64,000 nucleotides of DNA from an uncultured Methanosarcinales archaeon (GTDB lineage: Archaea; Nanobdellota; Nanobdellia; Woesearchaeales; ARS49). Where the stretch lies: positions 263,085 through 327,084 of the forward strand of contig CAYGVI010000003.1 of the NCBI GenBank assembly GCA_964353335.1, written 5' to 3'. A program made the position numbers and the translations under genes. Shown here in pieces: positions 17,609 through 57,298 of the stretch; position 1 is the first letter of the stretch, and every line of letters begins with the position of its first letter. Under the pieces are notes generated by a model. The model ran no database searches. It had not been told where the DNA came from and saw only the letters and a list, made by a program, of their open reading frames with translations.

Positions 17609-17665
17609 AGGCATTTCCGAGGATAATTGGTATATAAACATTTCTATGGCGTATTTGTTTTCGGC

Positions 17666-18595: not shown

Positions 18596-18633
18596 TGTGT
18601 TCAAGCCCGATTTTGAATTATATAAATGTTTGG

Positions 18634-32264: not shown

Positions 32265-32852
32265 ATGATTGACATTGTGTTTCCTGAGAAAAACGAGCAG
32301 GAATTTTTTGAAATGGCAAAAAAGCTCGGCTACAAGGGGCTTGTGCTTGTTTATCCCTCGCCTGCTGCTGCGAAAAGCGCGCCGAAGGCGCCTGCAGGGC
32401 TGAGTGTCAGGGCTGCTGTTCTTGCTGAGCCAAAAAAAGCATTTCAGCTGAGAAGCCAGGGCATACTGACTTTTGTGCAGTGCTCTGACCAGGACCGCGC
32501 TGTGCTCGAAAGGGGTTCTGCAGATGTGCTTTTCGGGGCAGAGAGCACAATGCCAAAGGATTACATGCACCAGCGCGGCTCAGGATTAAACCACGTGATG
32601 TGTGAGCTCGCGAAAAAGAATAATGTCACGATTGGATTCAGCTTTGCAGGCATACTCGCCTCAAGCCAGCGCTCGCAATTGCTCGGCAGGATATCGCAGA
32701 ACATAGTCCTCTGCAGGAAATATAAGGTCAGCACAGTCATTGCTTCATTTGCAAAAGACCCGTGGAAAATGCGCTCTCCGCATGACCTTGCCTCTTTTTT
32801 CACAGTACTTGGAATGCATCCCTCTGAGGCAAAAAGCGCATTAAAATTCTAG
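32265..32852 (+). CDS. rnp3: RNase P protein component 3 (Rpp30/Rnp3, TIM-barrel)
   Basis: 195 aa; 'GLNHVMCELAKKNNVTIGFSF...KYKVSTVIASFAKDPWKMRSPHDLASFFTVLGM' aligns closely with archaeal Rpp30 (PhoRpp30 '[21 protein letters not shown]...[33 protein letters not shown]'). Confidence 0.75.
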   Translation: MIDIVFPEKNEQEFFEMAKKLGYKGLVLVYPSPAAAKSAPKAPAGLSVRAAVLAEPKKAFQLRSQGILTFVQCSDQDRAVLERGSADVLFGAESTMPKDYMHQRGSGLNHVMCELAKKNNVTIGFSFAGILASSQRSQLLGRISQNIVLCRKYKVSTVIASFAKDPWKMRSPHDLASFFTVLGMHPSEAKSALKF

Positions 32853-36727: not shown

Positions 36728-38043
36728 AAATGAAAGCGCAGCTTACGCTGATGATGCTAATGGGGCTTGTAATGCTTATCGCGGTTGGAATTGTTTTGTA
36801 CATCGGCGGGTCTTCAATGACAAAAAGCACAGAGCGGGGAAGTGAGCAGCAGCGTTTGAGCCAGTCTGCAATCCAGACAATCAGGGATTATGTCCACTCG
36901 TGCCTTGACGCAACCACAACAGCTGCATTGGACCTTATCGGAAAGCAGGGCGGAGTGCTTTACAGGGCGCAGGGCGGCTTGACTCCTGACATCCTGCCTT
37001 CAGACCCGCAGGGCGGGCGCTATGTTATTTATGATGGGCTTAATGTCAGCTACCTCATCCACAGGCCCAGCCAGAATGTTGGCAGGCTTTATTTTGCAGA
37101 GCCTCCGGATTATCCATGGGTTACATTCCCGTATGTCCTTAACAAGTCAGACATGTCAGTCATGAGGACAACATACACCGGCTACTTTGGCATATCGCTT
37201 TTGCCCCCGCTTTTCAAGCCAGGCAAGGACTCCATCCAGGAACAGATTGAGTCATACATCAGCTTCAACCTTCCGCGCTGCACAGACTGGAGCTCATTCA
37301 AGGGGCTTTCAATCACTGCTGACAAGCCAAATGTCTCTGTAATAATCGCAGAGAACAAGACGCAGATTGAAACAGAGCAGTATTTCTCAGTGGTCGCGAA
37401 CTGGCAGGTGAACATCACTGACAGTTCCACAGGTTCCAACACCACACTTGACATGTTCTCGCGCGGTTATCCTGTCCACCTCGCAAAATTCTATGTTTTC
37501 GTGCAGAGCCTGATTTACAGCGAGATAAATGATTCATCATTTGACCCGCTCTCGCAAAGCTCGCCTGCAAGCCCTGTTTTTGTTTTCAGGGACATTTTCA
37601 AAAATCCAGAGGATGAAGGCGCTGATGACCTGATTATTGTAAAGGATGCAGAGTCAGAATTGCGCGGCAAGCCATTGGAGTTCAGGATACTGAGGCAGAA
37701 CCGCTATCCTGCGCTTGTCTGGATAAACCAGTCTGACATCAACAGCTATGCGTTTTACAGGATGGGCATGTGCCCAGCGAAAGCGCAGTCAATATTCCTC
37801 GAAGGCAACCAGCTCAAAATAACTTATGCAACAGACTCTCCGTATGAATGGTCTGGCACGCTTTCAGCAATTGACCCTGATGAGGACAATGTCAGCTTCA
37901 GCATCAAGCCTGAGGACGGGATAATAGATGACGTCCCGCTAAATGACGCCCTGTTCAGGCTGTTTGTTTATGCCTCTGACGGCGGAAACACAAAGGATTA
38001 CCAGATTGTCAACCTGACACTTGCGGGTTGCCCTGAAGAATGA
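36724..38043 (+). CDS. Class III signal peptide (type-IV-pilin-like) protein, 440 aa
   Basis: Start 'MKMKAQLTLMMLMGLVMLIAVGIVLYIGG' (basic residues, A, then Q+1 and a hydrophobic helix) overlaps the upstream stop (ATGA); large extracellular domain. Confidence 0.5.
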   Translation: MKMKAQLTLMMLMGLVMLIAVGIVLYIGGSSMTKSTERGSEQQRLSQSAIQTIRDYVHSCLDATTTAALDLIGKQGGVLYRAQGGLTPDILPSDPQGGRYVIYDGLNVSYLIHRPSQNVGRLYFAEPPDYPWVTFPYVLNKSDMSVMRTTYTGYFGISLLPPLFKPGKDSIQEQIESYISFNLPRCTDWSSFKGLSITADKPNVSVIIAENKTQIETEQYFSVVANWQVNITDSSTGSNTTLDMFSRGYPVHLAKFYVFVQSLIYSEINDSSFDPLSQSSPASPVFVFRDIFKNPEDEGADDLIIVKDAESELRGKPLEFRILRQNRYPALVWINQSDINSYAFYRMGMCPAKAQSIFLEGNQLKITYATDSPYEWSGTLSAIDPDEDNVSFSIKPEDGIIDDVPLNDALFRLFVYASDGGNTKDYQIVNLTLAGCPEE

Positions 38044-41000
38044 GAAAACTTTTGCTTATCGCGGTGGTTGCGGCATTTTTCTACATGGCACTCTTTTCCC
38101 AACAGGCATCCGGCCAGGAGCAGGGATGCTGCTGCGAGCCGATTTATCACCGCGGAATCATTGAGGAGCGCTCTGCGTGCGAGGAAAAAGGATATAACTT
38201 CACGTCAGAGCTTCCTGCCGAGGTCGGAGAAAGCTGCGACCCCATCTGCAATTCAACATTCGGCATTCCAATCATCATAACCCCGCCTGCTGACTGCGAG
38301 TCCCCGTTTTTCAACCCTGCTCCAATGAGCGTGGTTGCAAAGGCAGTCAAGGGAAAGAAGCAGATCAGGCTAATCTACACTGTTCCGTGCCCGATGCAGG
38401 CAATTGCTGTTAACATCTCGCGCTGTGCAGGTGATGATTGCGAGGACTTTTCCCAGATTGCCCAGATGTCGCCCACAGGGGTTTACACTGACGCGTCACC
38501 TGACCTTCTCTGGAACACCCCTTACACTTACATGGTGGTCATTACCTCGCGGATTTCAGGCGCTTCAGAGCCTGGCTTCGCAATAGGCAATGCAGGTGAC
38601 ATTGAATGCTGGAATCAGGGATTTGACAAGTTTTGCATTTCAGATTACTACTACACCCGCTTCCAGGAATATTTGTCAATGTATGGCTACAAGGATACCA
38701 GTGCAGATGCATTTGCAGGCGATTTACAGTCTTCTGTTGAGCTGACATTTGCTGACAAGTTTAATACCGGGAGATACTGCAATGATATCAACCTGCTCAG
38801 CGACACTGGCTTAAGCTGCCCTGAAGGAAAGAAGTGTGTCTCAGGAAAGCTCGGGCTTGCTTGCATCACTCCAACGTCCTGCGAAGGCGGCGGATTGTTC
38901 GGGCTTTACTCATCACTTGAAACCTGCGAGGGAACCGCGTCCGCGAAGAAGTACTGCTTCTTTGACCGCTCGCACAGTTCTGTTGACCGGTGCTACTCCT
39001 GCAGTCCGCAGATGAGCTGCGCTGACTACAGGTCAGAGGGCACGTGCAACCGCGACAACTGCTTTGCAGGCAACTGCTCATGGAAGCCTGTTTTCCCTGA
39101 CATCGGAATCGGTGTTTGTGTTGACAGCAGGTTCCCAAACTGCGCGTGGTGCACAAAGCAGGGCACAGAAGGGCTTGAAAACACTGATGCCTACAATGAA
39201 GTGTTTGACCAGTGCACTACAAGGAAATCAATAGCGCTCACTGTTCCAAATTATCTTTGCACATTTGACAAGAATGCCCAGGAAAGCAATGGCTGTGACG
39301 CCACTGCCTGCATGGATTACAATGACACTGACTGCGGCTCGCCTGCAGGAGGCATTCAGCTCAATCCTGACAACTCGCTTGAGGTTGGAAGCACTGACCC
39401 GTGCAGCATAAAGGTCTGCCAGCTTCAGTCCGGCATAGGCTGCCTGAAGAATGCTGACGGAAACGGTCTCTTTGACTGCGGCATAAAATCTGATGACCGA
39501 AGGCAGTGCGAGCTTGACCATTATCCGCCGAACACAACTTTTGTCGCTACCTCTTACAAGCCAAACCGCATGGACTGGCTCGAGGCAAGGATGCTTGACC
39601 AGGTGAACGGCACTGCAGACGCAGATTACATGCAGGGCAAACAGGGCTACAGGCTGAGGGTTTGCGTTGACAGCGAAGAAACACCCTGCGCTGAAGCCAC
39701 AACATTTGCCGAGACAAACCTTTCCTTGCTGAACTTCAATGACCTTTACCTGCAGGCAGGCAGGGATGTGGTTGCCACGATGTCCGACGGCGAGAACACG
39801 CTGAAATATTATGGAGTTGACCGCAGCAACAACCCTGAAGTTATCAAGGAAATGACAATACTTGCCTGCGACAAATGCCAGGGGCCCAAAGTGCTTGGCA
39901 TCAATGTCACCCCAAGCCGGAGCTACGAAGGAAAGTTTTACACAATATCCGAAATTCCAGTAATAACTGTCGCGTTCAATGAGCTTTCAACCCTGACAAC
40001 TGCCACGCTTTCAATCGGCAACAAGGTGATGCCTGTAAACGTCATGCCTCTTGGAGGGGCGAATTATGATTACACTTTTATCCCGATAAACACGCTGGAG
40101 GATGGCGAATACCTGCTGGCGTTCAATGCAAAGGACAGCAATGGGCTGCTTATGGACTTGCCTGGCTTGGCAATTATTGTTGTTGACACCACCCCTGGGG
40201 ATGTCACAATACTTCCTCCTGACGGAACTGTCATCAATGACACGTCAGTTGCAATCTCTTTCACCTTCAATCAGCCTCCTGTCAGCCTGCTTGGTGCTTA
40301 CCTTGACAATGAAGTCTGGATTAGCAAGTATGCCACGAAGAAAAAAATAATGAACCTGACATCAAGCCTTGTGGAAACAGAGCCCAATAAGGTCTATGAC
40401 ACCACTGTCGATGAGCTTTACGGCGGAAAGAAGAACATCAGGGTTTATGCAGAGGACTTCGCAGGCAATCCTGTAATAGGAAAGTCAAGCTTCTGGATTA
40501 ACAGCGGCCCATTGCAGATGAGGATGCGCGAGCCGAGCTGGGGTGTAAGCGCAACATATGTGTTTGACATCGCGATTGATACATCAATAGCCGCCACGTG
40601 CAAGTATGCGTATGACCTGCCTGCGCCTGTTCCTGTTGCGGCGTTTAATGACTTCCTTGCCCCATTCCCAGAGGAAAAAGAGGTTGTCCACAAGATTCCC
40701 GGATTTAACAAGATTTCTTTCGGTGATATGAAAGCGCACAAGCTTAGTGTTTATTGCAAGGCAGGGGCTAACATCACGATGGAGACATTTGAGCTACGCG
40801 TTGACCCAAGCCCGCCAACAATCAAGTCTGCTTACGCAGACCCTGCGGTAATAATTGAGCGCAGGACTCCAAGCGTGGACATATTCACAACATACCTGAA
40901 GGCTCAGACAGATGATGACGGCTTCTGCAGGTACAGCACCGAGAGCAAGCCGTTCATACTTATGGACGGGCTGTTCTCAGGCTTTGACGAATACCCCAAG

Positions 41001-43118
41001 AAATCCCACAGCGCTGAAATAAACGTAACTAAGGACATGACGTCATACACTTACTATGTTGCCTGCAAGAACACAGCAGAGCTGCCTTCTGCAACAGTGC
41101 CTGTCAAATTCAGCGTTGACACAACCATACCATTCGCGATAACAAGCCTCACCCCGCCATACTCCAACTCAACAGAATTCAGCATCGCCCTGCAGACAAA
41201 CAAGCGCGCATTATGCTACATTGCAGAAGACCCTGAAGTCACGCCCACTTTCATGGGATTGATGGGCCATTCGCACGTCTACCCTGTTGAAGTCAATAAG
41301 TCAGGCAATTATTCCTGGTATGTGAAGTGCAGCACAGGCGCAGGAAGCGAGGTTGCTGATATGTGGATCAATGTGCTTGTTGACACAACCCCGCCTGTAA
41401 TGCTGTATGTGAATGACAGTTCCAACCTGGCTGAGACTCCTGATGTCTCTTACTTCCTTGACCAGTTGATGGTAAAATTCCTTGGAGTTGACAATGAGAC
41501 CGCTGTTAATGCGTATTATTACCGCCTGCAGACTTTCTTCGCGAACGCCACAATCCTCAACTGGACTCTCAGCACAAACACAAACGGCACAGCATTTTAC
41601 GTGACAGGGTTGAACCTCACCGACGGCAACAAGTACAGGTTCGAGGCCTATCCTGTGAACATTATCGGGCTGCAGGGCGAGGCAAAGCAGAGCGATGGTG
41701 TGACGATTGATTCAACCAAGAAGCCTGCTGACTGCGTTAATGACATTCAGGATGGAAATGAAACAGACCTTGACTGCGGTGGCTTATGCCCTGGCTGCAA
41801 TGATGGCGGCAAGTGCAATGCTGATACAGACTGCCTGTCAGGATTCTGCGACAATGGACTCTGCGCACTGGTCGGCTGCGATGATGTTGCAAAGAATGGC
41901 AATGAAACAGATGTTGACTGCGGCGGAGGAGTGTGCCTGCCGTGCGGAATGAACAAGAGCTGCGTGCAGGATGCTGACTGCGCGAGCGGCAGCTGCAATT
42001 ATGGCACGTGCGGCGACCCGATACCATGCTCAGACGGCTTGCTCACAGGAACAGAATCAGACATTGACTGCGGAGGCTCATGCCCGAACAAGTGCGGCGA
42101 GGGAAAGAACTGCCAGGTGCCTTCTGACTGCGCAGGCGCACTGCTTTGCATTGACGAAACCTGCCAGGGATTGCTCGACAGCGACAATGACGGCGTTGAG
42201 GACGCAAAAGACAAGTGCCCGAACACGCCTGTCGGTGAAGCAGTTGATGAAAACGGCTGCTCTGCCTCGCAAAGGTTCACCTGTGGCGATGAGATATCTG
42301 ACGGCTGGAGGATAAAGTACTTTGGCAGCGTGCTTTGCGACGGAGACGGCGCCCCTGGTGCAGACCCTGACAAGGACGGCCTTACAAATGTTGAGGAATA
42401 CAGGGCGCGCACTGACCCGGCAAACGCAGACACTGATGGCGATGGATGGAATGACAAGGTTGAGCTTGACAAGGGCTATGACCCTCTTGACCCTGCTTCG
42501 CACCCGCCAAGCAAGGTGCGTATTTTGCTCTGGACTCTGCTCATACTTCTTTTGCTTGCAGTTCTGGGTGTCGGCGGATGGCTCGGCTACCAGTATTACA
42601 TGGAGAAGAGGCTTGAAGCCCTTCCGCCTTCAATACCTGCAAAGGCAGAAGCCCCTGAGCGCAAGTACAGGAAGTGGCCTTCAATAATTGAAAAGCTGCG
42701 CAGGATAGCGCGCAAGGAAGAGCCTGGTGTCATTGACCGCGACTGGGTATCGCTCGCAGAGCTTTCAGAGCGCCTGAAGGAAGGGAAAGTGCACGTGCAC
42801 AAGGATGTCTTTGAACGCCTTGAGGGCCTGATAAGCGGAAAGATTCCAAAGGAGGAGACAGAAAGCATCCTTGAGGCAATCCAGAAGGAGCCAAAGGCAT
42901 TCAAGCTTTTGCGCAGGATTTCATTTGAGAAGCTCTCTCCTGCTGAAAAGGAGTTTGTGCGCAAGCGCCTTGCATTCCTAAAGTCAGGAAAGCTCACATC
43001 AGCAGAGCTTGAGCAGGTGCTCACAAAGCTGCGCATAACCGCAGCATATTATAGGACTCACAGGGAAGAGCTTGAGCGCGAGCTTGAGGAATGGCTTGAT
43101 GAGCGGAGGCACAAATGA
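38040..43118 (+). CDS. Giant (1,692 aa) Cys-rich surface protein with thrombospondin-type-3-like Ca-binding repeats, C-terminal TM anchor and cytoplasmic coiled-coil tail
   Basis: Signal 'MRKLLLIAVVAAFFYMALFS'. Three ~40-aa tandem repeats '(N)ETDxDCGGxCxxCxxGxxCxxxxDCxSGxCxxGxC' (nt ~41730-42170). TSP3-like 'DSDNDGVEDAKDKCPNTP' and 'DPDKDGLTNVEEY...DTDGDGWNDKVELD' motifs. TM 'ILLWTLLILLLLAVLGVGGWLGY', then a Lys/Glu-rich tail. Confidence 0.7.
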   Translation: MRKLLLIAVVAAFFYMALFSQQASGQEQGCCCEPIYHRGIIEERSACEEKGYNFTSELPAEVGESCDPICNSTFGIPIIITPPADCESPFFNPAPMSVVAKAVKGKKQIRLIYTVPCPMQAIAVNISRCAGDDCEDFSQIAQMSPTGVYTDASPDLLWNTPYTYMVVITSRISGASEPGFAIGNAGDIECWNQGFDKFCISDYYYTRFQEYLSMYGYKDTSADAFAGDLQSSVELTFADKFNTGRYCNDINLLSDTGLSCPEGKKCVSGKLGLACITPTSCEGGGLFGLYSSLETCEGTASAKKYCFFDRSHSSVDRCYSCSPQMSCADYRSEGTCNRDNCFAGNCSWKPVFPDIGIGVCVDSRFPNCAWCTKQGTEGLENTDAYNEVFDQCTTRKSIALTVPNYLCTFDKNAQESNGCDATACMDYNDTDCGSPAGGIQLNPDNSLEVGSTDPCSIKVCQLQSGIGCLKNADGNGLFDCGIKSDDRRQCELDHYPPNTTFVATSYKPNRMDWLEARMLDQVNGTADADYMQGKQGYRLRVCVDSEETPCAEATTFAETNLSLLNFNDLYLQAGRDVVATMSDGENTLKYYGVDRSNNPEVIKEMTILACDKCQGPKVLGINVTPSRSYEGKFYTISEIPVITVAFNELSTLTTATLSIGNKVMPVNVMPLGGANYDYTFIPINTLEDGEYLLAFNAKDSNGLLMDLPGLAIIVVDTTPGDVTILPPDGTVINDTSVAISFTFNQPPVSLLGAYLDNEVWISKYATKKKIMNLTSSLVETEPNKVYDTTVDELYGGKKNIRVYAEDFAGNPVIGKSSFWINSGPLQMRMREPSWGVSATYVFDIAIDTSIAATCKYAYDLPAPVPVAAFNDFLAPFPEEKEVVHKIPGFNKISFGDMKAHKLSVYCKAGANITMETFELRVDPSPPTIKSAYADPAVIIERRTPSVDIFTTYLKAQTDDDGFCRYSTESKPFILMDGLFSGFDEYPKKSHSAEINVTKDMTSYTYYVACKNTAELPSATVPVKFSVDTTIPFAITSLTPPYSNSTEFSIALQTNKRALCYIAEDPEVTPTFMGLMGHSHVYPVEVNKSGNYSWYVKCSTGAGSEVADMWINVLVDTTPPVMLYVNDSSNLAETPDVSYFLDQLMVKFLGVDNETAVNAYYYRLQTFFANATILNWTLSTNTNGTAFYVTGLNLTDGNKYRFEAYPVNIIGLQGEAKQSDGVTIDSTKKPADCVNDIQDGNETDLDCGGLCPGCNDGGKCNADTDCLSGFCDNGLCALVGCDDVAKNGNETDVDCGGGVCLPCGMNKSCVQDADCASGSCNYGTCGDPIPCSDGLLTGTESDIDCGGSCPNKCGEGKNCQVPSDCAGALLCIDETCQGLLDSDNDGVEDAKDKCPNTPVGEAVDENGCSASQRFTCGDEISDGWRIKYFGSVLCDGDGAPGADPDKDGLTNVEEYRARTDPANADTDGDGWNDKVELDKGYDPLDPASHPPSKVRILLWTLLILLLLAVLGVGGWLGYQYYMEKRLEALPPSIPAKAEAPERKYRKWPSIIEKLRRIARKEEPGVIDRDWVSLAELSERLKEGKVHVHKDVFERLEGLISGKIPKEETESILEAIQKEPKAFKLLRRISFEKLSPAEKEFVRKRLAFLKSGKLTSAELEQVLTKLRITAAYYRTHREELERELEEWLDERRHK

Positions 43119-43633
43119 ATAATCGTGCGCAAATGATAGGCCAGGTTTTCATCTTTGTCATAGCGGGGCTTGTCTTCGTGCTTATCCTGGGCTATGGCTA
43201 CAAGGCAATAATGGGCTTAATGGAAAAAGGCGAGAAGGTCCAGCTGATTGACTTCCGCAACAAGCTTGACTCCTCAATCAACATCATAAAAAGGGATTAT
43301 GGGAGCGTGCAGCGCGTTGACCTTATTGTGCCTTCAAATACAGATGAAGTCTGCTTTGCGACTTCTGACAAGAATGATGTGCGTTCGGGCGAATGGGAAA
43401 AGAATTTCCAGGAAGAGCGCCCATTGTTTTACGGCGCTTGGGTAACCGGCACTGAGAATGTGTTCTTTGTGCCAAAACAGTCCACTCCAATACCTGAGAA
43501 GGATATTGTTGTTGACCCTGAAGGCAAGGGCTATCTCTGCGTCAATGCTGCAGGCGGCAGGATAAGCCTGCGCATGGAGGGCATTGGAAGCAAGGTGCTG
43601 ATAACAGAATGGCCTGTGCAGGGGGCAGAATGA
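43115..43633 (+). CDS. Pilin-like protein with class III signal peptide
   Basis: 172 aa; 'MNNRAQMIGQVFIFVIAGLVFVLILGYGY'; start overlaps the upstream stop. Confidence 0.5.
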   Translation: MNNRAQMIGQVFIFVIAGLVFVLILGYGYKAIMGLMEKGEKVQLIDFRNKLDSSINIIKRDYGSVQRVDLIVPSNTDEVCFATSDKNDVRSGEWEKNFQEERPLFYGAWVTGTENVFFVPKQSTPIPEKDIVVDPEGKGYLCVNAAGGRISLRMEGIGSKVLITEWPVQGAE

Positions 43634-44712
43634 GCAAGCGCGCGGTTGAAATGCAGTTCAACTGGATTTTCATCCTGATAGCAGGCGCTGTCATCCTTGC
43701 TTTCTTTTTCAACGTTGTGCAAAAGCAGCGCGCGCTCAGCGAGGAAAAGCTTTCAATAAAGCTTGCATCGCAGATGGATGCTATTTTTTCAGGAGCTATA
43801 GAAAGCAAGGGCACAATCCAGCCGCTCGCAACCCCCAAGCCAGGGATTGCGTTTTCCTGCAGTGATACCTGCGTCTGCAAATACCACGTAGGCAAAAGCG
43901 GAATAGAGTTTAATGACAAACTGATTTTCGCGCCTCCCTTAATCAAGGAACAGGATGCAAGGGCATGGGCTGTTGAGTGGAAGCTGCCGTTCCGCATTGC
44001 AAACTTCTTGATGCTCACAAATCCCGCAATAAAGTATTACCTTGTTTATGACTCTGCAAACCCGCTGTCAGCGCAGGCTTTCCAGCGCATCAGCAAGGGG
44101 CTGCCAAAGGAAATCAACAGGGAAACAATCTCATCCCCTTCAGGAGCAGGGGATGTTTCACCAGAGGGGTATGTGCAGACGCGCTTTGTTTTCATCGGCA
44201 CATCAGAGCCTGACCTTAGCAATCTCAGGATGGAATTCCAGAGCGAGGATGTTTCAGGCGTTTGGATTGATGACACTCTTGAGAAAGTTGTGTTTTACGA
44301 GAAATCAGACCCTGACAGGCTTGAATTCAACCAGTACCCTTCGTCCCTTGCCGGCGAGGAGACTGCTTATGCGACAATATTTGCCGCAGACCACATGATG
44401 TACAACTGCATGATGCAGCGCGCATTTGACAAGCTCGGCGCAATAGCAGGCGTGCACGAAGCCCGCGCCCGCGCTTTGCAGGAAACTATGGGCGCGCTTG
44501 ACACTCCGCGGCTTGACTGTGTTGGCGCTTATGACCCGATTATCACCTCGCTTGCGAATATGAGGCAGAAGGCAGTATTGCTTGGCACTTCATTTTCCCA
44601 GGAAGCCGATGCGCAGGGCGCAGGAGCCCTTGCTGGAATACTCGGAGTCCAGACAGAGCTTAACACCCAGAATACAAACCTGATAAAGCAGAACTGCCCG
44701 GAGATTTACTGA
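43609..44712 (+). CDS. Pilin-like protein with class III-like signal peptide
   Basis: 367 aa; 'MSKRAVEMQFNWIFILIAGAVILAFFF'; overlaps upstream gene. Confidence 0.45.
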   Translation: MACAGGRMSKRAVEMQFNWIFILIAGAVILAFFFNVVQKQRALSEEKLSIKLASQMDAIFSGAIESKGTIQPLATPKPGIAFSCSDTCVCKYHVGKSGIEFNDKLIFAPPLIKEQDARAWAVEWKLPFRIANFLMLTNPAIKYYLVYDSANPLSAQAFQRISKGLPKEINRETISSPSGAGDVSPEGYVQTRFVFIGTSEPDLSNLRMEFQSEDVSGVWIDDTLEKVVFYEKSDPDRLEFNQYPSSLAGEETAYATIFAADHMMYNCMMQRAFDKLGAIAGVHEARARALQETMGALDTPRLDCVGAYDPIITSLANMRQKAVLLGTSFSQEADAQGAGALAGILGVQTELNTQNTNLIKQNCPEIY

Positions 44713-45194
44713 TGAAAAAAGCGCAGATACAGATGTTTGAGACTGTTGGCGTGCTTGTGGTATTCTTCTTCCTGCTTGTTGCCGGCGCAGTGTTTTATTT
44801 TAACATCCAGAAGTCATCTATGCAGAAGGAGCTTGTCCAGCAGGCTCAGCTCAGAAGCCTGCAGTCAGCCCAGCGCGCTGTCTTTTTGCCAGAGCTTGAC
44901 TGCAGCTTTGCACGCGTGACGCGCGACAACTGCTTTGACCGCTTCAAGATCGCGGCATTGCATGAAATTATCGCAAATGATGACCACACGCGCCAGGTTT
45001 ATACCCGCTCTTTCGGATATGCAAACATCTCTGTAACAGAGGTCTTTCCAGGCTCTGGGATGACTGTGATTTATGACTATCCGCCTGAGGAATACCGCGG
45101 CATACTGAAGTCGCAGCTGCCTGTCCTGCTTTATGACCCTGTGACATGGGATGCTGCATTTGGAATAATGGAGGTCACAACATATGCGTCGTGA
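44712..45194 (+). CDS. Pilin-like protein with class III signal peptide
   Basis: 160 aa; 'MKKAQIQMFETVGVLVVFFFLLVAGAVFYF'. Confidence 0.5.
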   Translation: MKKAQIQMFETVGVLVVFFFLLVAGAVFYFNIQKSSMQKELVQQAQLRSLQSAQRAVFLPELDCSFARVTRDNCFDRFKIAALHEIIANDDHTRQVYTRSFGYANISVTEVFPGSGMTVIYDYPPEEYRGILKSQLPVLLYDPVTWDAAFGIMEVTTYAS

Positions 45195-45675
45195 TAAGCG
45201 CGGCCAGATGGAGATAATGGGCCTGGCAATAATAGTGATACTTGTTTCCCTTGCGATGCTCTTTGCAGTGCAGTGGATGCTTAAGCCTTCAACAGCAACT
45301 GTCCAGAAGACAAAGCAGTCTGTTCTCGCCACAAGTATGCTCACCACAATGGTCGGCACAACAACAGACTGCAACAAGCGCACAGTTGGTGATTTGCTTG
45401 GCGACTGCGCGCTCACGCAGGGTGCGACAAAATGCGCTGACATGACATCCTGCGATTATGTGCGCGGGGTAATGGGCAGCATCTTTAACGCGACAATGAA
45501 AAAATGGAAGCTTAATTATTATTTCCACATCACCGGAGCGAGTTCTGTTGAGGATATGAAGTTCGGAAGCGGCTCCACGCCCCAGCCGTGCAAAGGCGCA
45601 AAGCAGGGCAAGGAATACCCCCTTGTCGTCACCCAGACATATGAGCTCAAGCTCTATCTTGATATCTGCGGGTGA
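45184..45675 (+). CDS. Pilin-like protein with class III signal peptide
   Basis: 163 aa; 'MRRDKRGQMEIMGLAIIVILVSLAMLFAV' (KRG|Q plus hydrophobic helix); 8 Cys in the mature part. Confidence 0.5.
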   Translation: MRRDKRGQMEIMGLAIIVILVSLAMLFAVQWMLKPSTATVQKTKQSVLATSMLTTMVGTTTDCNKRTVGDLLGDCALTQGATKCADMTSCDYVRGVMGSIFNATMKKWKLNYYFHITGASSVEDMKFGSGSTPQPCKGAKQGKEYPLVVTQTYELKLYLDICG

Positions 45676-45723
45676 GAATATCGTCGGCGAAGATTTAAAA
45701 GCGCCTGGGGTTTAGATTCCCAT

Positions 45724-47622
45724 ATGGGGCTGTGGGACAGGATAAAGCGGCTTATTCCAATAGCGCTTTTGGCAGGAGGAGCCACATACATGATAGCCAA
45801 CCGCCCGCAGGCAGTTCCCCCGAGTCCTGCATATTCTGTTAATGAGCAGGCAGAGAGGTCAAGAAGGGGTGATGAGAGATTTTGGAAATTTGTTTTGTGT
45901 GGCACAGCGCTTTCCGTTGGTGCGCTTGGCGCCGCGCATGTTGCCCAAAGAATGAAAGGGAAAACGCCATCATTTTTACAGCCTGCTGTTGAAAAACCAG
46001 GCTTGACAGGCATTGCCGCAGGGGCATCATACGGTCTTGCTTACTATTCCCAGCTGCCAAAGCAGGAGGATGCGCCTTATGCGCTCGGCATTGCAGCAAT
46101 GTCAGGCATTCTCGGATACCTTGTGCCATCGCTTCTCAAGCAGTACCGCCCGCCGTATGTGATAAATTATGCGAAATGCCTGCCTGGAATAATACATTCC
46201 GTTTTTACCCGTGACCCTGTAAAAAAGCAAAAGATTCTGGAGGGATTGAGAAATAGTTTGGCAGTTCCTGAAAGGGCAGACATCGAACTTGTTGATGTAT
46301 TGTTTGCGCAGGGCAAAGTTGATGAGGCATGCAACCTTCTCAAGGACACAGCAAGGACTGCTGCAAAGGCACTTCCATCAACAGATTTTGAGCGTTATTT
46401 TACCCTGCCGCTTTCATCTGAAATAGTCAGGGGGAGGGCTGGCTCAAAGAGCCCGTTTAGCCTGATGTGCGAATACCTGCGCCAGGGCGACCTTGAAGAG
46501 GCGCTTTCAGCAGCAGACAACTTCGCGGCTCAGGAAAAAACACCAAGCAGGCTGGCTGCGCGGGCTTATGCAGTCCAGTCAGTGGCTGAAATGCTTCCTT
46601 CGCTGAAAGGGATTTTTCCGCATTTGTTGCTCAGGGAGACTGAGCTTGACGAACGCACCAGCCGCGCATGGAATGATGCCATCGGTGCAATCCTGTCAGA
46701 CCCGTCGCGCGAGCAGAAATTCCGCGTGATGGGCGAATCGCGCAATGAGGTGCTTGAGTATGCCGCAAGCGAATTCCTGAAGGGTCTGCTCGTGTTTAAG
46801 CGCTGTGACGTAAGGCTTGGCTCAAGGCTGGTGCAGGAGCGCGTGAATGTTATTTCCCTGAAAAACTCATTGGGGGACAGGATTGTGCAGTCAATCGCGT
46901 ATGTTGAGCGCGATGGCAAGGCGTATCATGTGCTGAAGCACGGCACTTCCCGCACTCTTGAGGATGTTATGCGCGCAGGCTCTCCTGAGGAAAAGCTAAA
47001 GTGCATGGACCAAGCTGCCCGTTTGCTCGCGAAAATACACCAGAGCAGGATTCCTGAGCCACAGGTTGCTGCCTGCGAGTCTTATTATCAAAACAGGCTT
47101 TCATCCTGCTTTTATGACCAGCTTGCGAACAGCCCGCTGTGCAAAGAAATTCCTTCATCAATAAAGGATGAGTTTCAATTTTTGGGCGAAAGGGTCAAGG
47201 ACGAGCTTTCTGACGCGCCGACAGGCTGGTACAAGGACGCAAACCCGAGGAATTGGCTTGTTGAGGACAATGGAAAGGTTGTGGCGATTGATTTTGAGCA
47301 CCGCATAAGGCTTCCTGTTCTTTTTGACCTTGTCAGCCTGCTTGAGTTCAGCCCTGTGCCTGCGCCAACTGAGATTAAGAGCAGGGTAATTGAGTATTAT
47401 CTTGGTGAATTCTACTCCACCAGCAAGCTGCCCATGGCAAAATTCATGCGGCACTACAGGATTTCCGCTCTCCAGCGTCACATTGAGCTTGCAGGCTACA
47501 GGGCAAGGGACAAGGATGCAAAGGCAGCAGCATTCCACATTGACCGCGCACAGTCATATGCCTATGAGCTTGGCGAGGATGTTTTTGCAGAAAAGCTTAG
47601 CAAGATAATCATAAGTGCATAA
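45724..47622 (+). CDS. Membrane-anchored protein-kinase-like (APH/choline-kinase fold) protein
   Basis: 632 aa; 4 predicted TM helices in the first ~140 aa; C-terminal domain with 'WYKDANPRNWLVEDNGKVVAIDFE', which resembles the APH/ChoK catalytic 'H.D..p.N.l...liDwE' brace. Confidence 0.45.
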   Translation: MGLWDRIKRLIPIALLAGGATYMIANRPQAVPPSPAYSVNEQAERSRRGDERFWKFVLCGTALSVGALGAAHVAQRMKGKTPSFLQPAVEKPGLTGIAAGASYGLAYYSQLPKQEDAPYALGIAAMSGILGYLVPSLLKQYRPPYVINYAKCLPGIIHSVFTRDPVKKQKILEGLRNSLAVPERADIELVDVLFAQGKVDEACNLLKDTARTAAKALPSTDFERYFTLPLSSEIVRGRAGSKSPFSLMCEYLRQGDLEEALSAADNFAAQEKTPSRLAARAYAVQSVAEMLPSLKGIFPHLLLRETELDERTSRAWNDAIGAILSDPSREQKFRVMGESRNEVLEYAASEFLKGLLVFKRCDVRLGSRLVQERVNVISLKNSLGDRIVQSIAYVERDGKAYHVLKHGTSRTLEDVMRAGSPEEKLKCMDQAARLLAKIHQSRIPEPQVAACESYYQNRLSSCFYDQLANSPLCKEIPSSIKDEFQFLGERVKDELSDAPTGWYKDANPRNWLVEDNGKVVAIDFEHRIRLPVLFDLVSLLEFSPVPAPTEIKSRVIEYYLGEFYSTSKLPMAKFMRHYRISALQRHIELAGYRARDKDAKAAAFHIDRAQSYAYELGEDVFAEKLSKIIISA

Positions 47623-48508: not shown

Positions 48509-48635
48509 GGATGGACTTAGCTGTTCTTCGTATATAAAACTTGCGGCGTATAAGCGTATAAGGGAATATATATGGTATATGGAAAAAGTATATACCCTTT
48601 CCGGATATATTACGGTCTATTGCGAGGTGATTCCG

Positions 48636-49112
48636 ATGGTTTCGAAAAAAGAACTGTTGATTGTGGCGAATTTGCGGAAGAATGCGCGGGTGAAGCTCAC
48701 AGAGCTGTCGCGCAGGACAGGCCTGCCGGTGAGCACGCTGTTTGACCGCGTCCATAATCTCTGCGATTTGGGCATAACAAGGCTCAGCGCGCTGCTTGAC
48801 TTTCCCGCGATGGGCTTTGGGACCTGCGCCACGATTCTTTTGAAGGTCGCAAAGGAAAAGCGCGATGAGCTCAGGGAGCACCTGATTGTTGCCCATTCCG
48901 TGAACTCCCTGATGCGCGTCAATAATGGCTATGACTTCATGGCAGAGTGTGTTTTCAGGGACATGCGCGAGCTTGAGGAGTTCTGCGAAAATCTCGAGCA
49001 GGCTTACGGCGTCAGGGGAAAGGAGCTGCATTTTGTGATTGAGGAGCTGAAGCGCGAGGGATTTCTTTCAGAGCCTTCGCTTGTCAGGCAGGTGGTAAAG
49101 GATGGGAAGTGA
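48636..49112 (+). CDS. Lrp/AsnC-family transcriptional regulator
   Basis: Start at the internal ATG 48636, in frame with ORF 48321..49112; 'KKELLIVANLRKNARVKLTELSRRTGLPVSTLFDRVHNL' HTH, then a RAM domain. Confidence 0.75.
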   Translation: MVSKKELLIVANLRKNARVKLTELSRRTGLPVSTLFDRVHNLCDLGITRLSALLDFPAMGFGTCATILLKVAKEKRDELREHLIVAHSVNSLMRVNNGYDFMAECVFRDMRELEEFCENLEQAYGVRGKELHFVIEELKREGFLSEPSLVRQVVKDGK

Positions 49113-49416: not shown

Positions 49417-49773
49417 GTGTTTGAAATGGATGAAACAATTGATTCAAAGGTGGAGGGTGCAAAAACTCCTTCAAAGATTGGAAGGTTTTTTGGCAATGCG
49501 GTTATGTACTTGGTTGTAATCGGCGCTGCAGGAGGAATTGGCGCAATCGGCAAGCAGGTGTATTATGACATCAAGGGAATCAGGCCTGTTGTGATGACTA
49601 ATGATGAGTATAATCAGTTTTCAGAGATTATGTCTGACTTGAGCAAAGCAAGGCATGAATACCTCTGCGAGCAGGCAAGGTATATCCGCGAAACTGTTAT
49701 GCCCACTATTGACAAGAATGGCGATGGCCATATCACCCGCGAGGAAGTGGGTTTGCCTCCAAAACAGCACTAA
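49417..49773 (+). CDS. Small membrane protein with canonical EF-hand Ca-binding loop
   Basis: 118 aa; TM 'AVMYLVVIGAAGGIGAIG'; 'DKNGDGHITREE' is a 12-residue EF-hand loop (D1,N3,D5,G6,I8,E12). Confidence 0.45.
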   Translation: MFEMDETIDSKVEGAKTPSKIGRFFGNAVMYLVVIGAAGGIGAIGKQVYYDIKGIRPVVMTNDEYNQFSEIMSDLSKARHEYLCEQARYIRETVMPTIDKNGDGHITREEVGLPPKQH

Positions 49774-49836: not shown

Positions 49837-50142
49837 ATGGATAAGAAAGCTCAGGGGCTACCAATAACAACAATTATCATAGCTATCCTTGGACTGGTTG
49901 TTCTGGTCATTTTGTTCGCAATCACTACAGGCAGGCTTGCCATATTTGGAAGGGCTACTGCAGAATGCCAGGGCATTTGTGTCGGTGAATACACTGGCGC
50001 AACCCCTGACCAAAATGCCCGCGAATGCACAGCTGGTTTTGAGAAAGAAGTTGGCGGCAATTATGTTAAGCCAGGACAGCCGCAGAGTATCAAGGCAGAG
50101 GAAATACTCAAGTGCTCGCGCTGCTGCCTGCCAATTGCCTGA
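49837..50142 (+). CDS. Small pilin (class III signal peptide), paralog 1; candidate major pilin
   Basis: 101 aa; 'MDKKAQGLPITTIIIAILGLVVLVILFAI'; mature part has 6 Cys including a C-terminal 'CSRCC'. Confidence 0.55.
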   Translation: MDKKAQGLPITTIIIAILGLVVLVILFAITTGRLAIFGRATAECQGICVGEYTGATPDQNARECTAGFEKEVGGNYVKPGQPQSIKAEEILKCSRCCLPIA

Positions 50143-50272
50143 TGGCGCTTATCACAGAAGCAACGCCCGGAAAAATTGTTGTTTTGATTTTCCTCGCGCT
50201 GCTGCTAATATACCTTGTCACCACATTGTTTGTGCTTGACAAGCAGCTTGTAATACCAATAATACCCGTACC

Positions 50273-50551
50273 ATGAAGAAAGCACAAGGTCTTCCAATAA
50301 CAACAATCATTATTGCAGTTCTTGGGCTGGTTGTTCTGATTGTTATTATGGGAATATTCGGGGTCCGCAGCCAGAAGTTCGGCAAGGGCGTAAGCGAGGT
50401 AGCTGAGCCCGTCTGCCAGGCGCAGTATGTTACTTCCATGACTGACTGCGATGCACGTGGCGGCGAAGCCCAGGTTGGCAGCTTTGTTAAGGAAGACAAG
50501 AGCCGCCTTGGCTTTACAGAAGTCTGTTGCTCTAAGGCACAATCACCCTAA
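50273..50551 (+). CDS. Small pilin (class III signal peptide), paralog 2
   Basis: 92 aa; 'MKKAQGLPITTIIIAVLGLVVLIVIMGIFG', near-identical N-terminus to paralog 1; C-terminal 'VCCSK'. Confidence 0.55.
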   Translation: MKKAQGLPITTIIIAVLGLVVLIVIMGIFGVRSQKFGKGVSEVAEPVCQAQYVTSMTDCDARGGEAQVGSFVKEDKSRLGFTEVCCSKAQSP

Positions 50552-55575: not shown

Positions 55576-55881
55576 ATGATGCTTATGAAGAAGCGCGGAC
55601 AGGGTTTGCCAATCAACACTATCATTCTTGCAGTGCTTGGGCTGGCTGTTCTTGTCATCCTTCTTTTCCTTGTGAGCGGCAAGCTGAGTGAGGGCTCCAA
55701 GAAGTATGGCAATATCACCCAGAGCGCAGAACAGCAGGCAAAGTCACAGGATGTTTGCGAGAGTGTCTTTGCCTATCCGCAGAGAAAGTGCCTTTCTTCA
55801 TCCGAGTGTACCCAAAGGAACGGCTTTGACAGGCCAGGGTACAAGGGCTGTGGTTCTAATGTTTGCTGCGAGCTTGGATAG
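55576..55881 (+). CDS. Small pilin (class III signal peptide), paralog 3
   Basis: 101 aa; 'MMLMKKRGQGLPINTIILAVLGLAVLVILLFLV'; C-terminal 'CGSNVCCELG'; same architecture as 49837/50273. Confidence 0.55.
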   Translation: MMLMKKRGQGLPINTIILAVLGLAVLVILLFLVSGKLSEGSKKYGNITQSAEQQAKSQDVCESVFAYPQRKCLSSSECTQRNGFDRPGYKGCGSNVCCELG

Positions 55882-56383: not shown

Positions 56384-57298
56384 ATGTTCTCAAAAAAAGC
56401 ATCCTGGGTCGGTCTTGTATTGCATCCGTTATTTGAGACTGCCATCGCCCTGGGCATTGTGCTTCTTTACCTTCTCTGGTTCATACACGGAATAGGCGAA
56501 ACAGCCACGTATGAGAAAAGGTTTTTGTCAACAGACATTCCTTTGCTGATGGACTCAATACTTGCAATGCCGCAGAAAGGAAACCTGTACGCGCTTTACA
56601 ACCCACAGCGCTCGACAGATTTCAGCACAAATTACAGCTTTAGCTTCTTAAAAAACCAGGTAATAATAATGGCAGGACCTGCAGACAAAAAGCAGGTCAC
56701 TGGATATTATACTTCAAAGCCAGGAATATATGTGCAGGAAAAACAGTTTATTGCAAAAGACGCCATGATTGTTCCGCTGTTTATACTGCAGGGAAATGAC
56801 CTGTTGATTGACAATGCGAACAAGCGCGAACTCACATACAACCGCAACATAATGCCCTGCTCAGGCCCAAGATTCCCAGGAACACTGAGCATACAGGGGG
56901 AAAATGCTGCAGCACAGCTTCTTTTGGGCCAGCGCTGGGCTGTAAAGTCAGGCGGAAGCGGTGCTTTCAGCATGCAAATCAAGCAAGGGCAGGAAACTGT
57001 TGTCAAGGCATACTTTAACGCAGAACAGCCTGCAGACCAGCTTGCCCAGAGCAGGCGCATTGCCTGCGAGGTTGCAAATGCAGCAGTGCGCGGGCTTGAC
57101 AAGATAGGCATTGATGTTGCCGGCTCTGCATTCATCCCGATAAATCCCAAGCACACAGGCAGCACTGATGATGACTTCCTGCAGGGGCTTGGTGTTTTGC
57201 TTGAGATTGATACTCCTGAAAAGCTTGACAATGTTCAGACACAGGTAACGCCGCTTGCGCTTGCGGTCGGAGAAGGGGTGCAGAATGCGAAATCGTAA
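56384..57298 (+). CDS. Pilin-like/membrane-anchored protein
   Basis: 304 aa; 'MFSKKASWVGLVLHPLFETAIALGIVLLYLLWF'. Confidence 0.4.
   Translation: MFSKKASWVGLVLHPLFETAIALGIVLLYLLWFIHGIGETATYEKRFLSTDIPLLMDSILAMPQKGNLYALYNPQRSTDFSTNYSFSFLKNQVIIMAGPADKKQVTGYYTSKPGIYVQEKQFIAKDAMIVPLFILQGNDLLIDNANKRELTYNRNIMPCSGPRFPGTLSIQGENAAAQLLLGQRWAVKSGGSGAFSMQIKQGQETVVKAYFNAEQPADQLAQSRRIACEVANAAVRGLDKIGIDVAGSAFIPINPKHTGSTDDDFLQGLGVLLEIDTPEKLDNVQTQVTPLALAVGEGVQNAKS

What the first reader, a model, noticed from the sequence alone, without database searches (positions are those of the whole stretch)
45724..47622. A four-TM membrane protein fused to an APH/choline-kinase-like domain sits inside the pilin locus
Four N-terminal TM helices are followed by a ~480-aa cytoplasmic region. 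Its 'DANPRNWLVEDNGKVVAIDFE' segment matches the catalytic-loop and metal-binding brace of the aminoglycoside-phosphotransferase / choline-kinase / eukaryotic-like kinase fold (H/DxDxxxxN ... IDxE). The gene lies immediately after the four minor-pilin genes and before the regulators. It could be a signalling kinase that links surface events to regulation, or an enzyme that modifies a lipid or glycan head group.
Basis: partly seen in the sequence, partly recalled or inferred. Interest (0 to 1): 0.55.

Follow-up and report, generated by a model that had tools for sequence, protein, structure and literature searches.

The report
Membrane kinase inside archaeal pilin locus
This gene encodes a membrane-anchored kinase of the antibiotic/sugar-kinase fold, apparently active, which in a group of tiny uncultivated archaea always sits between a set of pilus-like surface-protein genes and two gene regulators, so it is a good candidate for the switch that controls their surface appendages.

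Summary

The organism is a DPANN archaeon (Nanoarchaeia/Woesearchaeota). About 25 full-length relatives exist. A wider family of about 600 representatives carries only TPR and PD40 beta-propeller partner domains.

The gene order is conserved down to 26% kinase identity: giant surface protein, four prepilin-like genes, kinase, convergent AbrB-PhoU regulator, Lrp/AsnC regulator, small pilins. The kinase/AbrB-PhoU/Lrp trio persists even where the pilin-like genes are absent. The kinase has its own conserved TATA box.

Best reading (about 0.5): a receptor-type kinase that regulates the pilus/adhesin locus, analogous to PilS or FimS but built on a non-Hanks, non-histidine-kinase domain. Main rival (about 0.3): a membrane-tethered, AmgK-like small-molecule or sugar kinase. 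The substrate is unknown. I rate it a new variant of a known kind, of moderate interest.

The parts
45724..47622 (+). Whole gene: 632-aa membrane-anchored, TPR-like, APH-fold kinase
   Evidence: ORF list and translation. 15 homologues at 38-100% identity, all full length.
45694..45700 (+). TTTAAAA TATA-box-like element 23 nt upstream of the ATG; probably the gene's own promoter giving a leaderless mRNA
   Evidence: The same element lies 22-25 nt before the ATG in L002, L003, L004, L006, L007 and L008, and TTATATAA in L015. The promoter function is inferred from general knowledge of archaeal promoters.
45724..46137 (+). N-terminal membrane region, residues 1-138: four TM helices (about 10-26, 58-74, 93-109, 122-138), N-in/C-in. 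Conserved cytoplasmic loop motif K-G-K-x-P-S-F-L-Q-P-A-V-E-x-P (76-92).
   Evidence: Hydropathy and positive-inside counts. AF2 helices 2-25, 39-77, 92-108, 114-138. Relatives carry an inserted domain in loop 1.
46156..46713 (+). Cytoplasmic all-helical repeat, residues about 145-330 (TPR-like)
   Evidence: AF2 secondary structure. Weak Pfam TPR hits in this protein and significant TPR hits in the wider family. hhalign aligns this region with the TPR region of the wider family.
46726..47619 (+). APH/AmgK-like kinase domain, residues about 335-632
46732..46752 (+). G337-E-S-R-N-E-V343, the nucleotide-loop equivalent; a family signature
   Evidence: Invariant in A1. G 68/100, S 69/101, R 76/103, N 85/103 and V 88/103 in the wider family.
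46798..46839 (+). K359 (beta3 Lys, in LVFKRC) and E372 (alphaC Glu)
   Evidence: Invariant in A1. K 96/103 and E 97/111 in the wider family. They lie on strand 356-362 and helix 367-386 of the model.
47230..47298 (+). Catalytic loop Y503-K-D505-A-N-P-R-N510 and metal-binding I522-D523-F-E525
   Evidence: D505, N510, D523 and E525 are invariant. D 123/124, N 119/123, D 123/123 and E 116/123 in the wider family. The D...N (+5) and D...D (+18) spacings equal those I recall for APH(3')-IIIa D190/N195/D208 (recalled from memory, not computed here).
38040..43118 (+). Context: 1692-aa Cys-rich surface protein with a signal peptide, one C-terminal TM helix and a conserved ~190-aa cytoplasmic tail
   Evidence: Translation. 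Orthologue alignment. Conserved position upstream of the kinase.
43115..45675 (+). Context: four overlapping genes (172, ~360, 160, 163 aa) with class-III (prepilin-like) signal peptides, [KR][KR][AG]Q followed by a hydrophobic helix
47609..48508 (-). Context: convergent AbrB/SpoVT + PhoU-like DNA-binding regulator, overlapping the kinase 3' end by 14 nt
   Evidence: Pfam MazE_antitoxin/AbrB-type domain E=2e-8; PhoU 17 bits in this protein; PhoU above the cut-off in orthologues L007 and L014. Adjacent to the kinase in 17 of 27 fetched loci.
48636..49112 (+). Context: Lrp/AsnC-family regulator, first gene of the downstream co-directional run that contains the small pilins
   Evidence: Pfam AsnC_trans_reg and HTH_24. 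NCBIfam Lrp-like. Conserved next to AbrB-PhoU in 12 loci.
49837..50551 (+). Context: two small (101 and 92 aa) pilin-like genes with M(D)KKAQGLPITTIIIA N-termini; a third lies at 55576-55881
   Evidence: Translations. Conserved N-termini in orthologues.

Best explanation
What is shown: the gene encodes a catalytically competent kinase anchored in the membrane. It has four TM helices with both ends in the cytoplasm, then a TPR-like protein-interaction repeat, then a kinase domain of the APH/AmgK branch of the protein-kinase-like fold.

What is inferred: it is the sensory/regulatory component of a lineage-specific pilus/adhesin gene supercluster of Nanoarchaeia (DPANN).

Proposed mechanism, all inferred:
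- The TM bundle and its outward-facing loop (expanded into a beta-propeller-like ectodomain in relatives) report on something at the membrane or surface. Candidates are the pool of membrane-anchored prepilin-like proteins, the giant adhesin with its cytoplasmic tail, or an external cue.
- The TPR-like repeat recruits a cytoplasmic partner.
- The kinase domain phosphorylates that partner. The most probable targets are the neighbouring AbrB-PhoU and/or Lrp/AsnC regulators.
- This tunes transcription of the flanking pilin and adhesin operons.

Functionally this would parallel PilS-PilR or FimS-AlgR feedback control of bacterial pilin and minor-pilin operons, but with an unrelated catalytic domain.
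For: Fold and active site:
- Pfam APH scores above its cut-off.
- The AF2 model has pLDDT 84.9 and pTM 0.76.
- K359, E372, D505, N510 and D523 are invariant in the family and conserved in >=87% of distant relatives.

Topology: four hydropathy peaks and the positive-inside rule put the kinase domain in the cytoplasm.

Receptor-like architecture in relatives:
- P0014, P0015 and the L015 protein carry a 100-370-aa insert between TM1 and TM2.
- Other relatives are kinase-TM-PD40 propeller.
- Among 72 distant members the only partner domains are TPR and PD40/beta-propeller. None has a nucleotidyltransferase, glycosyltransferase or other metabolic fusion.

Genomic context:
- The order g1692, four prepilin-like genes, kinase, AbrB-PhoU (convergent), Lrp is kept in L002, L004, L006, L007, L008 and L015, the last at only 26% kinase identity.
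- The kinase/AbrB-PhoU/Lrp trio persists without the pilin-like genes in L005 (23%), L014, L019 and L024. L022 and L025 keep the kinase/AbrB-PhoU pair, without a detected Lrp in L022 and with L025 ending inside the AbrB-PhoU gene.
- No glycosylation or sugar-metabolism domain was found in any of the ~24 cluster genes scanned.
- The kinase has its own conserved TATA-like box, as expected for a separately controlled regulatory gene.

Precedent: minor pilins and PilY1 feed back on the membrane kinase FimS, which is encoded next to their operon (PMC5979040).
Against: - No substrate is identified and nothing here shows protein phosphorylation.
- The nearest sequence family is AmgK.
- The kinase and the AbrB-PhoU gene are convergent, so they are not co-transcribed. 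Adjacency within one archaeal class could partly reflect inherited synteny.
- Some relatives (L016-L018, L026, L021, L023) lack these neighbours.
- The TPR assignment for this particular protein is weak (Pfam E about 0.03).
- No pilus assembly ATPase or platform gene was recognised in the window.
Confidence: 0.5

Rival explanations
1. Membrane-tethered small-molecule kinase related to AmgK (anomeric MurNAc/GlcNAc kinase). It would phosphorylate a sugar, amino-sugar or lipid-linked glycan at the cytoplasmic face. The purpose would be to decorate the pilins or adhesins, or to trap sugars released from a host cell wall. The TPR-like repeat would only dock it to other enzymes or to a transporter.
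For: - The 3csv fragment matches NCBIfam AmgK at E=2e-43. Distant family members hit the AmgK model as their best or second-best NCBIfam match, with P0027 at E=1e-7. The query itself reaches E=0.05.
- The region after the IDFE motif (P531, D535, E541) has the short APH/ChoK layout rather than a long activation loop.
- An Amidase_3-like (cell-wall amidase) gene belongs to the same supercluster in relatives.
Against: - AmgK model scores are far below the cut-offs (12.7-31 bits against 550).
- AmgK-type enzymes are soluble single-domain proteins, whereas this one has four TM helices plus a helical repeat.
- There are no nucleotidyltransferase (MurU/LicC-like), glycosyltransferase or transporter domains, either as fusion partners in 72 relatives or among the cluster genes scanned.
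- This reading does not explain the PD40 ectodomains or the strict pairing with two transcription factors.
Confidence: 0.3
2. A kinase that acts on the pilus/adhesin machinery itself rather than on transcription factors. It could phosphorylate the cytoplasmic tail of the 1692-aa surface protein or the prepilin leader regions, so controlling assembly or adhesion after translation.
For: - The gene directly follows the tightly overlapping g1692/prepilin-like operon.
- g1692 has a conserved ~190-aa cytoplasmic tail.
- The TPR-like repeat is suited to binding such a tail.
- This gene order is conserved down to 26% kinase identity.
Against: In L005, L014, L019 and L024 the kinase keeps its regulator neighbours, but the pilin-like genes and g1692 are not detected in the sequence available upstream, which is short in L019 and L024. 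The regulators are therefore the more constant partners. There is no direct evidence for any interaction.
Confidence: 0.12
3. A toxin-antitoxin-like pair, by analogy with HipA-HipB: a kinase toxin neutralised by the neighbouring AbrB/MazE-fold DNA-binding protein.
For: The neighbour carries an AbrB/MazE-type domain and weakly matches the model 'putative addiction module antidote' at E=5e-6, below its cut-off.
Against: - The genes are convergent, not co-transcribed.
- The kinase is a 632-aa, four-TM, multi-domain protein.
- The partner is a ~300-aa AbrB-PhoU regulator.
- The pair sits at a fixed chromosomal position inside a conserved 26-kb cluster, not in a mobile context.
Confidence: 0.03
4. 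An ordinary aminoglycoside or other antibiotic resistance phosphotransferase.
For: The Pfam family name, and Foldseek top hits to APH(3') enzymes.
Against: - No NCBIfam resistance-APH model is matched by the query.
- Identity to APH enzymes is only 12-16%.
- The membrane anchor and helical repeat do not fit such an enzyme.
- The housekeeping-like synteny is conserved in a DPANN lineage.
Confidence: 0.02

Closest known systems
AmgK-type anomeric MurNAc/GlcNAc kinases, represented by PDB 3csv (Silicibacter sp. TM1040)
   Different: Identity is 14%. The protein fails the NCBIfam AmgK cut-offs by a wide margin. The catalytic loop reads YKD instead of HRD. It has an extra four-TM anchor and a ~185-aa helical repeat. 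No MurU-like partner gene was seen. The host is an archaeon.
APH / choline-kinase family (Pfam PF01636, protein-kinase-like fold)
   Same: The bilobal fold, the Brenner-type D-x-x-x-x-N catalytic loop, the metal-binding Asp and the helical substrate subdomain are shared. The Pfam score is above the gathering cut-off.
   Different: Known members are soluble enzymes acting on small molecules. This one is membrane-anchored, fused to a repeat domain, and embedded between surface-structure and regulator genes.
PilS-PilR and FimS-AlgR control of bacterial type IV pilin and minor-pilin operons
   Same: This is a functional analogy only. In both cases a multi-TM membrane kinase is encoded beside a (minor) pilin plus large-adhesin operon, together with a transcription regulator. 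FimS activity is modulated by the minor pilins and PilY1 (PMC5979040).
   Different: There is no HisKA/HATPase_c domain and no response regulator (Pfam). The catalytic domain is unrelated, and the system is archaeal.
Bacterial receptor Ser/Thr kinases with extracytoplasmic beta-propellers (PknD-like) and TPR-containing Hanks kinases
   Same: Relatives of this protein combine a cytoplasmic kinase, TM helices, a PD40/beta-propeller ectodomain and TPR repeats.
   Different: The kinase domain is not Hanks-type, since no Pkinase hit was found. It lacks a long activation loop.
YihE/SrkA (RdoA), an APH-fold protein kinase
   Different: It is a much weaker match than AmgK-like and choline kinases. YihE is soluble and has a single domain.

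Membership tests
APH/ChoK-type protein-kinase-like fold (Pfam PF01636) | Profile score above the curated cut-off | tested here: met
   28.4 bits against 23.2, E=1.8e-6, residues 398-560. Relatives score up to 52 bits.
APH/ChoK-type protein-kinase-like fold (Pfam PF01636) | Bilobal kinase fold with a helical substrate subdomain | tested here: met
   [not shown]
APH/ChoK-type protein-kinase-like fold (Pfam PF01636) | Catalytic set: beta3 Lys, alphaC Glu, catalytic Asp and Asn in D-x-x-x-x-N, and the metal-binding Asp | tested here: met
   K359, E372, D505, N510 and D523 are invariant and conserved in 87-100% of distant relatives. The residue before the catalytic Lys-Asp is Tyr rather than the usual His.
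AmgK (N-acetylmuramate/N-acetylglucosamine anomeric kinase) | NCBIfam equivalog score above the cut-off | tested here: not met
   12.7 bits against a cut-off of 550 for the query. The best relative scores 31 bits.
AmgK (N-acetylmuramate/N-acetylglucosamine anomeric kinase) | Soluble single-domain enzyme paired with a MurU-type uridylyltransferase | tested here: not met
   The protein has four TM helices and a helical repeat. No nucleotidyltransferase was found among the neighbours or fusion partners scanned.
AmgK (N-acetylmuramate/N-acetylglucosamine anomeric kinase) | Phosphorylation of MurNAc/GlcNAc at C1 | not testable with these tools
   Needs an enzyme assay.
Hanks-type Ser/Thr protein kinases | Pkinase domain with an activation loop | tested here: not met
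   No Pkinase hit even at E<=10. Only ~10 residues separate the IDFE motif from the conserved P531...D535 segment.
Two-component sensor histidine kinases (PilS/FimS type) | HisKA and HATPase_c domains, and a cognate response regulator | tested here: not met
   These domains are absent from the protein and its neighbours. The resemblance is functional only.
Kdo/WaaP lipopolysaccharide kinases | Pfam Kdo family match and closest structural similarity | tested here: not met
   [not shown]
Archaeal type IV pilin-like proteins (context genes 43115-45675) | Class III signal peptide: basic residues, then Gly/Ala, then Gln followed by a hydrophobic helix | tested here: met
   The motif is conserved in all four genes and their orthologues.
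Archaeal type IV pilin-like proteins (context genes 43115-45675) | Pilin-type globular domain, and processing by a prepilin peptidase | tested here: inconclusive
   [not shown]

The most novel reading that the evidence does not exclude
This protein and its ~600 representative relatives would form an unrecognised class of archaeal transmembrane receptor kinases. Their catalytic domain derives from the AmgK/APH small-molecule-kinase branch, not from Hanks or histidine kinases. In DPANN archaea they would couple the state of the pilus/giant-adhesin apparatus, and hence host contact, to AbrB-PhoU and Lrp transcription factors by protein phosphorylation.
Probability: 0.3. Interest if true: 0.75.

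Novelty: new variant of a known kind. Interest (0 to 1): 0.55.

Why it matters
DPANN archaea depend on physical contact with host cells, yet almost nothing is known about how they regulate their surface appendages. The published census of archaeal type IV pilus loci lists no kinase of this kind among the regulators (PMC4858521).

A conserved, apparently active membrane kinase sits at the hinge of a 26-kb pilin/adhesin supercluster, paired with two transcription factors. That gives a concrete and testable entry point into this question.

If it phosphorylates proteins, it would also be a new example of the APH fold recruited for receptor signalling. If it is a sugar kinase, it would point to an unknown modification or salvage step tied to the pilus locus.

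Tried and rejected
- Single-sequence search against PDB gave only a marginal hit (3csv E=0.009). The family profile was needed.
- The NCBIfam scan of the query gave nothing significant.
- The afdb50 fold library was unavailable, so the taxonomic spread of structural relatives could not be read from UniProt.
- Literature searches found nothing on this family or this association. The searches were DPANN + pili + kinase, AbrB + PhoU + archaea, AmgK + 3CSV, and Woesearchaeota + pilin + phosphotransferase.
- I looked for a second conserved partner next to relatives that lack the regulators, namely the 401-aa protein in L005 and the 397-aa protein in L026. They are unrelated to each other.
- The sigma-70 promoter and terminator scan is irrelevant for an archaeon and gave only background.
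- There is no tRNA gene in the window and no second copy of the kinase in the window.
- The model of p163 did not confirm a pilin fold.
- The pseudokinase reading was rejected because all catalytic residues are invariant.
- The resistance-APH and toxin-antitoxin readings were rejected on architecture and context.
Full report
**1. The observation**

The ORF 45724-47622 (+) exists as described and encodes 632 aa. Its start is supported by the conserved N-terminus M-G-L-W in all homologues.

Single-sequence hydropathy shows three strong hydrophobic segments (7-25, 56-74, 120-138) and a weaker Gly/Ala-rich one at 93-109. Averaged over the 15-member family, four peaks appear (10-26, 58-74, 93-109, 122-138). 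The N-terminus, loop 2 and the segment after TM4 carry a K+R excess (3.1/0.5, 4.5/1.2 and 3.3/1.1 K+R over D+E), whereas loop 3 does not. This gives an N-in, C-in topology with about 490 cytoplasmic residues. AlphaFold2 (15-sequence alignment, pLDDT 84.9, pTM 0.76) predicts four long helices there. It then predicts an all-helical region at 145-330, and an alpha/beta N-lobe plus helical C-lobe at 335-632.

**2. The kinase domain**

- Pfam APH (PF01636) scores 28.4 bits against a cut-off of 23.2.
- Foldseek against PDB returns only APH-fold kinases at probability 1.00: APH(3')-IIIa at E=1.7e-5 and 3csv at TM 0.62.
- A family profile against all PDB sequences finds 3csv at E=1.5e-11 as the only kinase.
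- A 174-aa fragment of 3csv matches the NCBIfam AmgK model at E=2e-43. Distant family members hit an AmgK model weakly but repeatedly, with P0027 at 1e-7. All are far below the 550-bit cut-off.

So the nearest characterised relatives are AmgK-type anomeric amino-sugar kinases, but the protein is not an AmgK.

The catalytic set is complete and invariant:
- G337-E-S-R-N-E-V (nucleotide loop)
- K359 in LVFKRC
- E372
- Y503-K-D505-A-N-P-R-N510
- I522-D523-F-E525
- P531, D535 and E541
- a C-terminal signature Q584-R-H-x-E588-x-x-G591-Y-R593-x-x-D596 and H605

In about 120 distant relatives D505 is kept in 123/124, N510 in 119/123, D523 in 123/123, K359 in 96/103 and E372 in 97/111. The protein should therefore be an active phosphotransferase. 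This is an inference from conservation.

**3. Family and organism**

Only 15 proteins in a 5.8-billion-sequence collection match by word-indexed search. An exhaustive profile search of 1.84 billion cluster representatives gives 601 hits at E<=1e-3, of which 185 are at <=1e-10 and 45 at <=1e-30. About 25 of them are full-length equivalents.

Genome hits are MAGs labelled Candidatus Nanoarchaeia or Woesearchaeota. The window itself carries archaeal housekeeping genes: Cdc6/Orc1, FEN1, eRF1, PheRS alpha and beta, RPA, RadA and TrmB.

Profile-profile alignment shows that the core and wider families are homologous from about residue 78 (TM3/TM4), through the helical repeat, to the C-terminus (529 columns, E=3e-68). 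In the wider family the helical region is bona fide TPR. In this protein the TPR signal is only weak (E about 0.03), so I call it TPR-like.

Among 72 distant members scanned one by one, the only Pfam families found are APH, TPR variants and PD40/beta-propeller domains. None has a nucleotidyltransferase, glycosyltransferase, transporter or other metabolic partner. Some relatives are arranged kinase, TM, PD40 propeller (P0028, P0033). P0014, P0015 and the 1039-aa protein of L015 carry a 100-370-aa insert between TM1 and TM2 with PD40-like sequence motifs. That resemblance was judged by eye and is not significant in Pfam. This is the layout of a receptor, with a variable outward-facing module.

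**4. Context**

The gene lies at the centre of a run of about 24 co-directional genes (33443-59022). Almost none of them has a Pfam hit.

Upstream lie large Cys-rich secreted proteins, including a 1692-aa protein with a C-terminal TM helix and a conserved ~190-aa cytoplasmic tail. Four genes follow (172, ~360, 160, 163 aa) whose N-termini are class-III, prepilin-like signals that are conserved in orthologues. Examples are M-K-K-A-Q-I-Q-M-F-E-T-V-G-V-L-V-V-F-F-F and K-R-G-Q-M-E-I-M-G-L-A-I-I. These genes overlap one another by 1-11 nt.

The kinase follows after a 48-nt gap that contains TTTAAAA 23 nt before the ATG. The same element at 22-25 nt is present in all seven orthologous loci examined, and L015 has TTATATAA. 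From general knowledge of archaeal promoters, this is a TATA box for a leaderless, separately initiated transcript.

The kinase 3' end overlaps by 14 nt a convergent gene for an AbrB/SpoVT-domain protein with a PhoU-like C-terminal domain. PhoU scores above the Pfam cut-off in the orthologues of L007 and L014. Divergent from that gene, across an AT-rich 127-nt spacer, lies an Lrp/AsnC regulator. It heads the downstream run, which includes three ~100-aa pilins with K-K-A-Q-G-L-P-I-T-T-I-I-I-A N-termini.

**5. Conservation of context**

I searched the ORFs of all 27 fetched loci with the window's proteins.

- The order g1692, p172, p367, p160, p163, kinase, AbrB-PhoU (convergent), Lrp is retained in L002 (89% kinase identity), L004 (42%), L006 (44%), L007 (39%), L008 (39%) and L015, where the kinase domain is only 26% identical.
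- The kinase/AbrB-PhoU/Lrp trio is retained without detectable pilin-like genes in the upstream sequence available in L005 (23%), L014 (34%), L019 and L024. L022 and L025 keep kinase/AbrB-PhoU.
- Relatives of about 700-724 aa (L016-L018, L026) and stand-alone ~370-aa kinases (L021, L023) lack these neighbours.

The regulators are thus the most constant partners, and the pilin/adhesin operon comes second.

**6. Interpretation**

Shown:
- an intact APH-fold kinase domain on the cytoplasmic side of a four-TM anchor
- a helical repeat between the two
- a receptor-like variable ectodomain in relatives
- deep conservation of adjacency to two transcription factors and to a prepilin-like/adhesin operon
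- the gene's own conserved promoter element

Inferred: the protein is a receptor-type kinase that links the state of the membrane or surface apparatus to transcription of the flanking operons, through the AbrB-PhoU and/or Lrp proteins.

The closest functional precedent is bacterial. The minor-pilin/PilY1 operon lies next to fimS-algR, and the minor pilins and PilY1 feed back on the membrane kinase FimS (PMC5979040). PilS sensing of PilA is a second precedent, which I cite from general knowledge.

The chief rival is that the protein remains a small-molecule kinase like all its nearest structural relatives. The AmgK affinity and the Amidase_3-like gene in the same supercluster of relatives make an amino-sugar substrate conceivable. 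Against this stand the absence of any metabolic partner domain or gene, and the TPR/PD40/regulator associations.

I put about 0.5 on the regulatory receptor-kinase reading and 0.3 on the small-molecule kinase. I put about 0.12 on a kinase acting on the pilus or adhesin proteins themselves. Toxin-antitoxin and antibiotic-resistance readings are marginal.

**7. The 'pilin locus' label**

The prepilin-like N-termini are real and conserved, and the three small genes look like typical archaeal pilins.

No type IV pilus assembly ATPase, platform protein or prepilin peptidase was recognised among the window ORFs scanned.

**8. Novelty**

The fold and chemistry are known. The architecture is not described in the literature I could search. 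That architecture is a four-TM anchor, a TPR-like repeat and an AmgK-like kinase, with conserved placement between a pilin/adhesin operon and AbrB-PhoU/Lrp regulators in DPANN archaea. The 2016 census of archaeal type IV pilus loci lists KaiC/FlaH ATPases, ArnA/B, ArnR, Lrs14 and TFIIB-like regulators, but no kinase of this type (PMC4858521). Source annotations are 'hypothetical protein' or 'thiamine kinase-like enzyme'.

I rate it a new variant of a known kind, with interest 0.55.

Noticed in passing
window 33443-59022: A ~26-kb run of about 24 co-directional genes, almost none with a Pfam hit. It lies between an ORF at 32265-32852 that I read by eye as RNase P p30-like (no tool test) and RPA. 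The gene order is conserved in relatives at about 40% identity. It looks like a lineage-specific surface-structure supercluster of Nanoarchaeia.
   Followed up: partly
window 38040-43118: A 1692-aa Cys-rich surface protein with a signal peptide, a single C-terminal TM helix and a conserved, highly charged ~190-aa cytoplasmic tail. It is a possible partner or substrate of the TPR-like kinase.
   Followed up: partly
[not shown]
   Followed up: partly
window 49837-50142, 50273-50551, 55576-55881: Three ~100-aa genes with near-identical K-K-A-Q-G-L-P-I-T-T-I-I-I-A N-termini are the likely major pilins. None has a Pfam hit.
   Followed up: partly
window 56384-57298; L007 18510-19478; L008 14899-15924: The window's 304-aa gene is homologous (phmmer 3e-12) to proteins in relatives that pass Pfam Amidase_3 (N-acetylmuramoyl-L-alanine amidase). 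A cell-wall amidase-like protein in an archaeal pilus cluster hints at interaction with bacterial hosts.
   Followed up: partly
window 49417-49773: A small 118-aa membrane protein downstream of Lrp has a weak EF-hand-like calcium loop (Pfam E about 0.002, below the cut-off).
   Followed up: no
window 16646-22303 (minus strand): Five consecutive ORFs of 306-516 aa have no Pfam hits. They were not examined further.
   Followed up: no
window 48509-48635: An AT-rich 127-nt divergent spacer between the AbrB-PhoU and Lrp genes carries several TATA-like elements (GTATATAAAA, TATAAGG, TATATATGG, GTATATACC). It probably holds divergent promoters and operator sites.
   Followed up: no
L003 and L004 (same MAG, JBGPHE01): One MAG carries two copies of the p163/kinase/AbrB-PhoU arrangement, at 44% and 42% identity to the query. 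This reflects either two paralogous clusters or two strains binned together.
   Followed up: no
window 36664-38043: The mechanical ORF starts at 36664, but the conserved prepilin-like N-terminus M-K-M-K-A-Q-L-T-L-M begins at 36727. The real start is probably the later ATG.
   Followed up: partly
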